Virus record (IMG/VR): IMGVR_UViG_3300025018_000484
Span: 1-26,442 of that record
DNA length: 26,442 bases
Direction: 5' to 3' (one strand)
DNA from: a virus
Lineage: Duplodnaviria > Caudoviricetes
This document shows, one piece after another, positions 12,664 to 14,592 of the stretch. The notes beneath the pieces were generated by a model. It worked only from the letters and a program-made list of their open reading frames with translations. It was not told the DNA's origin and searched no databases. How positions within the stretch are numbered: position 1 is the stretch's first letter; every line of letters begins with the position of its first letter. Both the position numbers and the translations under genes were made by a program.

Positions 12664-12783
12664 TTATGCCGCGCTGTCGAACATCACGATGCGGGAGTTA
12701 GCCGCGTCGGGATGAGTGATGCCGAAACCGCACAGCGCATACCATGCAGCCCCGCGATCACGTCCGTAGTCTTCAGGGAGTTT
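12664..12783 (-). CDS. major capsid protein, exon 2 (KLPEDYGRDRGAAWYALCGFGITHPDAANSRIVMFDSAA*)
   Basis: Hand translation. 39 codons plus TAA, with no start codon of its own, beginning right after the intron terminal G at 12784. It joins exon 1 in frame (PEEIRA|KLPEDYGR) and supplies the DYGR...AWY C-terminal motif expected of N4-gp56-like capsids. Confidence 0.92.
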   Translation of the reverse strand, partial: KLPEDYGRDRGAAWYALCGFGITHPDAANSRIVMFDSAA

Positions 12784-13713
12784 CAAAAGTTCAGATAACG
12801 GCGCTACCCGTTACCCCGCTTTGCGAGCAATTGCTTTGTCCTCTCACTGTAGAGGACTTGCCGGATCTGGCTGTCTGTCAGGCCGTAGCGTTCCATAAGT
12901 TCTTTCATGGGAACGCCTGAATTACGAAGCTCGATGGCTTCGAACACAAGGGCTTCAGGATACTTGGTCCCGCCATGGACGCCGCTTAACGGCCCACCAG
13001 CAGTGCCTCGCTTTTTCCCCTTAAGGATTGTCGAGACGTGACCTTCGGAGATCTTGAACAGTGCCGCTATGGCCCGTCCAGTCATCCCCGCGTCCTTCAT
13101 AGACCTTATGGCCTTGACTTCCTTGTCTGTCAGTTTTGACATTCCATTCGCTTCCCCAAGGCATTGTCTGCCTCTGGCAACCATATCCGCGATATTGTCG
13201 GCTTGGCTACCAAGGAGCAAATGCTCCGGGTTCAAACAAGATGGATTGTCGCAACGATGACGAACAACCATTCCTGTTGGGATCGGACCTTTGTGGATCA
13301 GGTAAGACGCCCTGTGGGCGTAGATGGGGGTATCACCCCATATTTCATGAACTCTGATCTGTCCGTAACCGTGGCTCTTGCCAAGGTTCCATTCCCAACA
13401 ACCGTTAGCGGAAACTTCCCAGTTCTCGCTTAAGGCTCGCATCACTGCCCGCCGTTTCCGACGGGATCGGACTATATCATCACCCCACATTTCTGTGGGG
13501 GCCGGGCGCTTCGGGTCCGCTTGGACCCTATAGGGTAATCCCCTAGTCTCTGAACGTTCCGCTTTCGCGGCTTCGCTGCTGATTGGCATAGACATATCTC
13601 CAAGAAGCTAAACTCCCTGAATATAACATGCCCTTAGCTTTCCAGCAATTCACCCAGTTTTACACATGCGTTACCGCATGAGGTGCCAAACTTCCTTAAT
13701 GGAGAGTTGCTCT
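12784..13713 (-). ncRNA. group I self-splicing intron (IA2-like), 930 nt, in the major capsid gene
   Basis: Core motifs: P GAAUUGCUGGAAA (13639-13651), Q AAUCAGCAG (13576-13584), R UUCAGAGACUA (13544-13554), S GAUAUAGUCC (13469-13478). P1 pairs exon GUGCU with IGS GGCAC, U.G at the splice site; P10 is AGUUU/AAACU. P2 CAUGCG-GUAA-CGCAUG, P3 CUGGGUG/CGCCCGG, P7.1, P7.2, P8 CCCCAC/GUGGGG and P9 with GAAA loop are all present. Ends in G. Confidence 0.95.
12804..13589 (-). CDS. intron-encoded HNH homing endonuclease with C-terminal HTH-like DNA-binding modules
   Basis: CWEW...GYGQI...AHRASY...VRHRCDNPSCLNPEHLLLGSQADNIADM is an HNH motif, followed by GEANGMSKLTDKEVKAIR...IAALFKISEGHVSTIL and a second HTH-like segment. 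Start placed at ATG 13589 (GGAG at 13598-13601, 8-nt spacing). ATG 13595 or GTG/ATG near 13443-13446 are alternatives. Confidence 0.9.
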   Translation of the reverse strand: MPISSEAAKAERSETRGLPYRVQADPKRPAPTEMWGDDIVRSRRKRRAVMRALSENWEVSANGCWEWNLGKSHGYGQIRVHEIWGDTPIYAHRASYLIHKGPIPTGMVVRHRCDNPSCLNPEHLLLGSQADNIADMVARGRQCLGEANGMSKLTDKEVKAIRSMKDAGMTGRAIAALFKISEGHVSTILKGKKRGTAGGPLSGVHGGTKYPEALVFEAIELRNSGVPMKELMERYGLTDSQIRQVLYSERTKQLLAKRGNG

Positions 13714-14592
13714 AGCACGGATTTCTTCGGGAACGACCGATGCCTCAGTGACAGGATCGTCACCAAAGAACATGGCCCACGATGCCTTGCCGTTGTCCCA
13801 TGCGTCTGCCGTGTCGGTGTACGCGTCAAACGTGGTGGAATCGGCAGCGCCGCCCTTCGGGATCATGCTCTGCTCTACGAAAGTGGTGTCTTCGTAGCGT
13901 CCGACTTCGCCGAACTTGATGTAGCCCAGGCCGGTGTCCGTGTACTGGTGAACAGATTCCAGGCTGTTCTTGATGCCGCGCATGTTGGTGACATCGGTGA
14001 CACAGAAGTAACCGTCATTGTCGCGGTGAGGCGGAATGCTGGCTTCCTTCATGTAGTCCACGATGGCCTTCACATGGCCGGTGCCGAGAGCAACGTCATT
14101 GGTTGCCGCAGCAGTGCTGTTCGTGGTCACAGTAACAGCCGTGGTGGACGTACCCGAGGTGGGAACGGCACGAACGACAGTCTGCTTGAACTGCAAGAAG
14201 GTTTCGACATCGAACTGGGTTGCTGCCATGTACGACAGGCCAGACTGAATAATGCCTTCCCAGTCTTCCTTGGAGAGAAGCTGAGCCTTCTGGGTGTGCT
14301 CGATGGCACCGCCCATTTCCACAACGGTCAACGACCGCTGGAGCTTGGTCAGCGTCTCGGAGGGGACGCGGGTGTTCTCCTGCAAGCGGTAGTTCTTGCG
14401 CGGGGGCTTGGAGTACACATTCCAGTAGAATGTATCACCAGCACGAGGCTGAGCCCCACCGCTGCCGCCACCATCCGCAAGAGTTGCGAACTGACGGAAT
14501 TTTGCCTTCGGGCGAAGGCTTTCACGGAGCATATTCGAAACCTGATTGGAGTGAATATATCCGTCCTGCTGGTCCCATGTAATTTGCGACAT
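13714..14592 (-). CDS. major capsid protein, exon 1 (N4-gp56-like family); spliced product 332 aa
   Basis: Follows the scaffold gene. Motifs GDTFYWNVYS, L.E...VP and GEVGRYEDTTFVEQ. 293 codons ending GCT at the 5' splice site. The unspliced frame stops 5 codons later in the P1 loop (13696). Confidence 0.9.

What the first reader, a model, noticed from the sequence alone, without database searches (positions are those of the whole stretch)
13585..13633. Intron hairpin hiding the endonuclease RBS is a perfect antisense copy of the ligated exon junction: candidate natural toehold switch or guide
Seen: the spliced capsid mRNA would read ...GAAGAAAUCCGU-GCU|AAACUCCCUGAA-GAC. The intron RNA at 13621-13607 reads UUCAGGGAGUUUAGC, the exact 15-nt reverse complement of GCU|AAACUCCCUGAA. 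The following UUCUU can also pair with upstream exon AAGAA across a 6-nt bulge. This is separate from the normal IGS, which is present at 13683-13692. The element forms the 5' arm and loop of a G-U-rich hairpin UUCAGGGAG-UUUAG-CUUCUUGGA in the P5 region. Its 3' arm holds the GGAG Shine-Dalgarno, 8 nt before AUG 13589 of the HNH ORF. The unpaired loop UUUAG is complementary to CU|AAA, exactly the splice point, which exists only after splicing or in an intron-less allele. Known: RBS-sequestering hairpins control T4 intron endonucleases, but I know of none opened by the exon junction. Inference: ligated-exon RNA (own spliced mRNA, or mRNA of a co-infecting intron-less phage) invades via the loop, replaces wobble pairs with Watson-Crick pairs and switches on endonuclease translation. 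Alternatives are a guide helping the HNH/intron RNP find the homing site, a reverse-splicing aid, or an inverted DNA copy of the target acting as an operator for autorepression.
Basis: partly seen in the sequence, partly recalled or inferred. Interest (0 to 1): 0.93.

Follow-up and report, generated by a model that had tools for sequence, protein, structure and literature searches.

The report
Intron nuclease promoter copies its target
A self-splicing intron in a phage capsid gene holds an exact backwards copy of its own insertion site on top of a predicted promoter for its DNA-cutting enzyme; because related introns hold such copies in either direction, the copy is likely a DNA site where the enzyme represses its own gene rather than an RNA switch.

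Summary
Observation confirmed: 13621-13607 is an exact 15-nt inverted copy of the spliced junction (0 of 3000 shuffles reach 13 nt). It sits in a P5 hairpin that hides the Shine-Dalgarno of AUG 13589. The RNA-toehold reading works in silico for this intron only: 10 of 10 homologues with known junctions show chance-level RNA complementarity. The homologues share another design. P5 holds a predicted sigma70 promoter (7 of 12 use the ribozyme's P4 strand as -35, 17 nt from an extended -10) and an RBS hairpin that the promoter's transcript truncates. The HNH-HTH frame runs through the ribozyme's 3' core (50 protein clusters). Target-like DNA overlaps the promoter in either orientation: strongly in sense in L454, in antisense here and in L182/L185, at chance level in several others. 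This fits the T4 I-TevI layout (internal promoter, RBS hairpin, operator resembling the homing site), so autorepression at DNA level is most likely (0.55). A captured, non-repressing fossil follows (0.25); a lineage-specific toehold is possible (0.12). Binding and transcription are untested. No earlier scan note described this.

The parts
13714..14592 (-). Major capsid gene, 5' exon (293 codons)
   Evidence: PHROG 1357 major head protein, E 8.5e-9; spliced frame continuous; relatives L001-L008
12784..13713 (-). Group I intron, 930 nt, between Ala and Lys codons (RA|K site)
   Evidence: Rfam RF00028 at 13723-13448; near-identical ORF-less intron at the same site in L001
13683..13695 (-). Internal guide sequence (P10 strand 13695-13688, P1 strand 13687-13683)
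   Evidence: Sequence; duplex with ligated junction -18.7 kcal/mol
13643..13648 (-). Predicted -35 (TTGCTG), which is also the 5' strand of ribozyme helix P4
   Evidence: 17-nt spacing to an extended -10 in 7 of 12 members; reads TTGAC[TG] in L451, L452, L454. Only 3 of 6 consensus bases here, so the consensus scan did not list it
13620..13628 (-). Predicted extended -10 (TG-t-TATATT); predicted start about 13614-13612
   Evidence: 6 of 2000 insert shuffles score as well; untested
13607..13621 (-). Exact 15-nt inverted copy of the ligated junction (-3..+12); overlaps the -10 end, discriminator and predicted start; also the 5' arm and loop of the RBS hairpin; candidate operator
   Evidence: matches the window's own allele with 0 mismatches and the other 24 alleles with 3-9
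13598..13606 (-). 3' arm of the hairpin: UUCUU (resembles exon 1 across a 6-nt gap) and Shine-Dalgarno GGAG (13601-13598)
   Evidence: Fold; gapped alignment
13591..13633 (-). P5 extension as a whole (32 nt longer than in ORF-less relatives): promoter plus RBS cassette
   Evidence: Absent in the ORF-less same-site intron L001 and in L207, which has the same short P5 and no open core frame; short form also in a contig of run X4; an extension is present in 12 of 12 ORF-bearing members
12804..13589 (-). HNH endonuclease with two C-terminal HTH domains, 261 aa; about the first 48 codons are ribozyme core (P4' to P9); the stop lies in the intron's 3' structure
   Evidence: Pfam HNH_3 E 3.8e-12 and HTH hits; 50 clusters share the core-coded N-terminus; model pLDDT 82.9 with residues 1-35 poorly ordered; best fold match I-HmuI, E 9.4e-3
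12664..12783 (-). Major capsid gene, 3' exon (39 codons and stop)
   Evidence: matches the C-termini of L002-L008

Best explanation
The 15-nt copy is likely a DNA operator: the intron's HNH-HTH nuclease would bind this copy of its likely target, which overlaps a predicted promoter inside P5, and so would shut off its own transcription. Shown: the copy, its position over the -10 and start region, the hairpin-forming sequence, and the frame through the core. Inferred steps: (1) In the capsid precursor RNA, P5 folds and hides the RBS, keeping ribosomes out of the ribozyme so that it can splice. (2) A promoter that uses the P4 strand as -35 makes a short RNA that lacks the hairpin's 5' arm and the 5' half of the ribozyme; this would be the nuclease mRNA, read from AUG 13589 through the leftover core. 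(3) The protein nicks intron-less alleles near the junction and binds the copy. (4) The copy lacks exon-1 bases -4..-9, which may spare it from cutting.
For: Orientation is free. L454 carries a sense copy of its own junction over its -10 (score 36; 0 of 2000 shuffles; 0 of 165 control windows; -22..+16), L455 a weaker sense copy (45 of 2000), and the window an antisense one. L182 and L185 carry decayed antisense copies that best match other phages' alleles (0 and 3 of 400). The best of 25 alleles is the intron's own for the window, L454 and L455. Four members (36, 33, 33, 30) exceed all 24 control P5 regions (max 29). A site profile scores 4.9 or more in 8 of 12 members against 1 of 24 controls. 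With promoter-fixed bases left out, 6 of 11 members still resemble the site at 156 of 5000 or better (L454 0, L185 1, L452 49, L182 84, L456 138, L451 156; L243 borderline at 264). The promoter geometry recurs in 7 of 12. Cutting at the predicted start lowers the RBS opening cost in 12 of 12 (window 16.3 to 6.3). The protein has two HTH domains. The same three-part layout is described for T4 I-TevI, where repression was shown (PMC2988022).
Against: No binding, start site or nick site was measured. Against their own junction, 8 of 10 homologues are not significant (L231, L383, L451, L452, L453, L456; L182 97 and L185 752 of 2000). L231, L243, L383, L451 and L453 are at chance against the allele library too. 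Part of the resemblance can come from the -10 consensus and anti-SD CC looking like Gly-Lys-Ile-Pro codons. Members share ancestry, so counts are not independent. The scoring scheme and the register of the profile tests were chosen after seeing the sequences. The window's -35 has only 3 of 6 consensus bases and was not listed by the consensus scan. An exact match at synonymous positions is more than a tolerant nuclease should need. Any truncation weakens a hairpin, so the 12 of 12 is weak on its own.
Confidence: 0.55

Rival explanations
1. Captured-DNA fossil. Junction DNA was copied into P5 during nick repair and was kept only because it supplied a -10, a Shine-Dalgarno-like tract or a hairpin arm. 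The nuclease does not usefully repress there, and the window's exact match only marks a recent copy.
For: Copies are decayed or undetectable in most members. In six members the -10 itself reads as the junction codons, so capture could create the promoter at once. The window's two arms align as one inverted copy of -19..+12 with a 6-nt gap. Intron sequence resembling the target is also known as an invasion relic (I-TevII; PMC3984707).
Against: Resemblance persists across a deep protein tree in both orientations and at two insertion sites, always on the promoter. It follows the intron's own allele in three cases. The nuclease domain entered near P9, about 150 nt from the copy, so this is not the flanking relic of the invasion model.
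Confidence: 0.25
2. Toehold switch. Ligated-exon RNA invades the hairpin loop and frees the RBS on the excised intron, coupling nuclease translation to completed splicing or to an intron-less co-infecting phage. If real, it is an add-on of this lineage.
For: In silico, ligated junction RNA binds at -5 to -8.5 kcal/mol against -0.6 to -1.0 for exon 2 or precursor, and RBS opening falls from 16.4 to 3.6-7.3. The junction is accessible in spliced mRNA (2.2 kcal/mol). At most 1 of 60 shuffled targets do as well. The three arm mismatches are all G-U wobbles. L231 keeps a 6-nt junction complement in its loop and binds its junction at -9 kcal/mol for two of three target lengths.
Against: 10 of 10 homologues show chance-level duplexes with their own junction (82-300 of 500 shuffles). 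Their RBS cost falls by at most 5.1 against 9.2-11.7 here, and by at most 1.4 in L231. Sense copies cannot pair. The IGS binds the same bases far better (-18.7). The model omits tertiary contacts that favour the native fold. The promoter-derived RNA would keep only about 7 of the 15 nt. The three junction-specific bases lie in a motif also found in L243, which sits at another site.
Confidence: 0.12
3. Cis refolding. The loop pairs with the intron's own J4/5-P5 strand and frees the RBS, and the junction match is incidental.
For: The insert has a 7-nt complement to that strand in the window and L231, and 6 nt in L243.
Against: The complement is 5 nt or less in the other 9 of 12. It does not explain the 12 exon-2 bases. 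The native P4-P5 fold is the predicted minimum.
Confidence: 0.05
4. RNA guide for homing or an aid to reverse splicing: the intron RNA uses the copy to find the target.
For: The copy is antisense and spans the insertion point.
Against: It is not conserved as a complement and is paired inside a hairpin. The protein looks like a self-sufficient HNH-HTH nuclease with free-standing relatives beside intron-less capsid genes.
Confidence: 0.03

Closest known systems
[quoted passage not shown]
   Same: RBS about 8 nt from the AUG hidden in a hairpin; an internal promoter whose transcript lacks the hairpin arm; a homing-site-like sequence (15 of 20 nt in I-TevI; 17 of 20 here) overlapping that promoter.
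   Different: HNH plus two HTH rather than GIY-YIG; a sigma70-type rather than T4 late promoter; the -35 is a ribozyme helix strand; the cassette is in P5 while the nuclease domain lies beyond P9; the copy occurs in either orientation across the family; repression is untested here.
'Core creep' of intron ORFs (PMC3073962)
   Same: The ORF overlaps ribozyme sequence at both ends; the paper notes that alternative starts can bring core sequence into 5' ends.
   Different: About 48 codons from P4' to P9 are dual-use and fixed in 50 protein clusters, with a dedicated promoter and RBS in P5. I-TevI overlaps by 20 nt. Residues from about 37 on, coded by P7'/P9, are confidently folded in the model.
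I-HmuI-type HNH homing endonucleases (PDB 1u3e)
   Same: Pfam HNH_3 domain followed by HTH DNA-binding domains; top fold match.
   Different: The match is weak (E 9.4e-3, 18% identity) and the sequence search did not find it. I found no report of autorepression by an HNH intron nuclease's listing.
Endonuclease-invasion relic (sunY / I-TevII; passage in PMC3984707)
   Same: Intron sequence resembles the exon-junction target.
   Different: There the similar sequence flanks the ORF; here it lies on the promoter, away from the P9 entry point, and can be inverted.

Membership tests
Group I intron | Catalytic core covariance-model match | tested here: met
   RF00028, 84.2 bits against gathering score 50
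Group I intron | U-G at the 5' site in P1, terminal G, removal restores the host frame | tested here: met
Group I intron | Self-splicing | not testable with these tools
   No RNA run was laid; both read-laying runs used DNA-type or untyped contig runs
HNH homing endonuclease | Intact HNH motif plus DNA-binding domain | tested here: met
   HNH_3 E 3.8e-12 and HTH hits; H92, D114, N115, H123, N132 invariant in 50 proteins
HNH homing endonuclease | Cuts intron-less allele and promotes homing | not testable with these tools
   Needs an assay
I-TevI-type autorepressed cassette | RBS sequestered in the long transcript | tested here: met
   Prediction only: P5 fold -27.5 kcal/mol, z -3.6; RBS paired in family folds
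I-TevI-type autorepressed cassette | Internal promoter whose transcript lacks the hairpin arm | tested here: inconclusive
   Geometry recurs in 7 of 12 and scores above shuffles, but is not listed by the consensus scan and no start site is mapped
I-TevI-type autorepressed cassette | Target-like sequence overlapping the promoter | tested here: met
   Window and L454 0 of 2000; L182, L185, L455 weaker; five members at chance
I-TevI-type autorepressed cassette | Protein binds the operator and represses | not testable with these tools
   Needs EMSA and reporter
Toehold / trans-activated riboregulator | Trigger binding is favourable and frees the RBS | tested here: met
   In silico, window only
Toehold / trans-activated riboregulator | Complementarity to the trigger maintained in homologues | tested here: not met
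   10 of 10 at chance; sense copy in L454

The most novel reading that the evidence does not exclude
In this lineage the operator copy has become a natural toehold switch: the freshly spliced capsid mRNA pairs with the excised intron's P5 hairpin and turns on translation of the nuclease through the ribozyme core, so the intron senses its own splicing product, or an intron-less competitor's mRNA.
Probability: 0.12. Interest if true: 0.9.

Novelty: new variant of a known kind. Interest (0 to 1): 0.6.

Why it matters
Autorepression through a homing-site-like operator has been shown for one enzyme, I-TevI, in the reviews read. If it holds here, an unrelated HNH family reached the same design separately, and the homologues suggest how: junction DNA placed in P5 at the right distance from the P4 strand yields promoter, operator and RBS hairpin together. 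The family also shows a ribozyme core that serves at once as catalyst, promoter element and protein code in 50 clusters. It offers matched natural variants (sense, antisense, decayed, ORF-less) for direct tests of operator against RNA switch.

Tried and rejected
Assembly artefact: run X1 holds all 206 sampled words but may be the source, so it is not independent support. L216 is the window's own record and was left out of all counts. Laying 8 runs gave no homologous insert sequence: X2's close relative breaks across 13532-13625. No family member was found in cultured phages or plasmids, nor a capsid-site member in the genome scan (whose pattern would miss L231-type P4 flanks). The 3'-end pattern scan gave L001 and two chance hits. 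L450 was a chance hit and was dropped. L449 duplicates L383, L201 duplicates L231, and L065/L169/L289 duplicate L001. Ungapped DNA comparison found nothing convincing in homologues (best 6 of 200); the L454 copy appeared only with gaps. A profile at the D|Y site was not significant in any of 12 (best 55 of 1000). My first idea that the AUG was newly gained was wrong. A clean 'one orientation per clade' story was rejected: sense resemblance at the -10 occurs in both clades. A start after P9 was rejected as the family rule, though Val49 (29 of 50) could be GTG in some members. The PDB sequence search gave only a designed HTH repeat. DNA for most of the 50 proteins could not be obtained, so their P5 regions are unseen. 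Earlier scan notes were unrelated.

Full report
Observation. The window is part of a phage genome (terminase and head genes). A group I intron (RF00028, 84 bits) occupies 13713-12784 on the minus strand; removing it joins the capsid frame at RA|K, as in intron-less relatives. Bases 13621-13607 are the exact reverse complement of junction positions -3..+12. In 3000 shuffles of the intron the longest junction-spanning match was 12 nt. The segment forms the 5' arm and loop of a P5 extension whose 3' arm holds GGAG 8 nt before AUG 13589 (fold -27.5 kcal/mol, z -3.6; predicted loop 3 nt). The copy matches the window's own allele exactly and the 24 other alleles with 3-9 mismatches, so it is recent or actively kept.

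The insert goes with the ORF. A near-identical intron at the same site, L001, has no nuclease ORF and a short P5; L207 has the same short P5 and no open core frame. Scans of viral and metagenome collections gave 11 further introns with DNA whose ORF starts at the P5-base AUG: L182, L185, L231, L243, L383, L451-L456. They lie at three sites within about 45 nt of the same capsid gene (R[AG]|K, D|Y, WY|). All 12, counting the window, have a P5 extension. A protein search gave 76 clusters at E 1e-40 or better; 50 of them carry the core-coded N-terminus and were aligned. Met at the P5 position is present in 48 of 50, and the window's Met50 in 1 of 50. L231 and L452 have no other start codon before the nuclease motif. 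Among 160 other introns of this type, 72 have the same ATG but only 2 have it open past P7 (two family rows removed). The model is confident from about residue 37 and poor before it. The best fold match is I-HmuI, weakly. The core-reading proteins form one clade against four free-standing or L9-encoded relatives (95/96; 28 rows, 12 of them chosen from the 50 proteins).

A promoter under the element. The window has TTGCTG (the P4 5' strand, 13648-13643), 17 nt, then TG-t-TATATT (13628-13620). Six of 2000 insert shuffles score as well on my own scoring scheme. The stock scan did not list it because the -35 has 3 of 6 consensus bases. The same geometry occurs in 7 of 12 members, and in L451, L452 and L454 the P4 strand reads TTGAC[TG]. 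L243 has its own TTGACC-17-TAAATT. Of the 10 members scored, L453, L455, L456 and the frameshifted L383 are weaker (66, 193, 89, 1818 of 2000). A transcript from the predicted start lacks the hairpin's 5' arm, and the RBS opening cost falls in 12 of 12 (window 16.3 to 6.3). It also lacks P1, P2 and the 5' strands of P3 and P4, so it could not fold a ribozyme. This would remove the conflict between splicing and translation without any trans switch (inference).

Test of the RNA switch. For the window the idea works on paper: ligated-exon RNA binds the P4-P5 domain at -5 to -8.5 kcal/mol, exon 2 or precursor at -0.6 to -1.0, and the RBS cost drops to 3.6-7.3. But the IGS binds the same bases at -18.7, and tertiary structure is not modelled. 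In the 10 homologues with a known junction (L243 lacks exon 2), duplexes of insert and own junction are at chance (82-300 of 500 shuffles). Their RBS cost falls by at most 5.1, against 9.2-11.7 here. For the switch: L231 keeps a 6-nt complement in its loop and binds its junction at -9 for two of three target lengths, and L451 at -9.8 for one of three. In those cases the RBS cost falls by only 0.8-2.4.

Test at DNA level. Gapped alignment of each insert to its own junction gives the window 33 (antisense) and L454 36 (sense, -22..+16, covering its -10 and start), each 0 of 2000 shuffles and 0 of 165 upstream windows. L455 scores 24 (sense, 45 of 2000) and six others are at chance; L182 and L185 give 97 and 752 of 2000. 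Against 25 alleles, L182 and L185 show antisense copies of other phages' alleles (0 and 3 of 400), L455 and L452 are borderline (19, 23), L456 gives 55, and five are at chance. The own allele ranks first for the window, L454 and L455. Four members exceed all 24 control P5 regions. A leave-one-out profile of the R[AG]|K site scores 4.9 or more in 8 of 12 against 1 of 24 controls; in six the splice point falls on the first T of the -10. With promoter-fixed bases excluded, six of 11 remain at 156 of 5000 or better and the window, L231, L453 and L455 do not. These tests were designed after inspection and the members are related, so the weaker values are suggestive only. The firm points are two highly significant copies of opposite orientation, each on its promoter and each following its own exons. 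Double-stranded DNA recognition accounts for both; RNA pairing accounts for one.

Mechanism and rivals. Most likely (0.55): the precursor hides the RBS, the internal promoter makes a dedicated nuclease mRNA, and the nuclease binds the target copy and limits its own transcription. Shown are the sequences and their arrangement; promoter use, binding and repression are inferred. Second (0.25): captured DNA kept only as promoter, RBS or hairpin material. Third (0.12): a toehold added in this lineage, which could coexist with the operator. Cis refolding (0.05) and RNA guiding (0.03) have little support.

Comparison with the literature. PMC2988022 (passages; section 12) describes for T4 I-TevI an operator of 15 of 20 nt identity overlapping the late promoter, shown repression, and the hairpin-truncating promoter; it calls the I-TevII and I-TevIII operators untested. 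PMC3073962 (passages) defines core creep. PMC3984707 (passages) gives the invasion-relic and collaborative-homing models. PMC11878797 and PMC1995217 (passages) added nothing specific. The primary I-TevI and I-TevII papers were not read, and no supplements were read. Eight searches (listings only for papers not named above) showed no report of this family, of a P4-strand -35, of an HNH intron operator, or of a junction-triggered RBS switch; the library lacks most subscription papers. Sigma70 consensus, the anti-SD motif and the P-element names are from recall.

Verdict. A real feature and a new variant of a known kind. It looks built like the I-TevI cassette but cannot be filed as an autorepressor until binding is shown. 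The family-level design (ribozyme strand as -35, target-like DNA at the -10, frame through the core) is the better supported novelty. Interest 0.6; the toehold case would rate 0.9 at probability 0.12.

Noticed in passing
L453:1835-1891 (minus strand): A 57-nt core-less mini-intron at the same RA|K site: guide-like pairing to both exons, one hairpin and a terminal G, with no P3-P8 core. Removing it restores the capsid frame, and a full intron lies 45 nt downstream. It may be spliced by the neighbour's core.
   Followed up: partly
L001, L182, L185, L231, L243, L290, L294, L383, L417, L451-L456: This capsid gene is a hot spot for group I introns, with many sites in its last 60 codons and often two or three introns per gene.
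   Followed up: partly
L314, L371, L426 (just after the capsid stop): Free-standing HNH-HTH relatives directly follow intron-less capsid genes, the layout expected for collaborative homing. The L426 promoter region reads like the capsid's I-A-W-Y codons (seen by eye).
   Followed up: no
L453 P5 extension: The best -10 lies 7 nt before the AUG with no Shine-Dalgarno, suggesting a leaderless nuclease mRNA.
   Followed up: no
L190:1627-1675 of the reverse strand: An unrelated intron of the same type carries a whole ORF (GIY-YIG-like by eye) inside P5, behind TTGACA-17-TAGATT, so P5 is a recurring home for promoters.
   Followed up: no
L383:1501-1900: The family nuclease gene is frameshifted here, and this member has the weakest promoter and no detectable target copy.
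   Followed up: partly
L231:159-791: A second intron with another HNH ORF lies further upstream in the same capsid gene.
   Followed up: no
window 12729-13742, run X4: One contig replaces this stretch with 872 other letters, suggesting a different intron or ORF in the same region of a relative.
   Followed up: no
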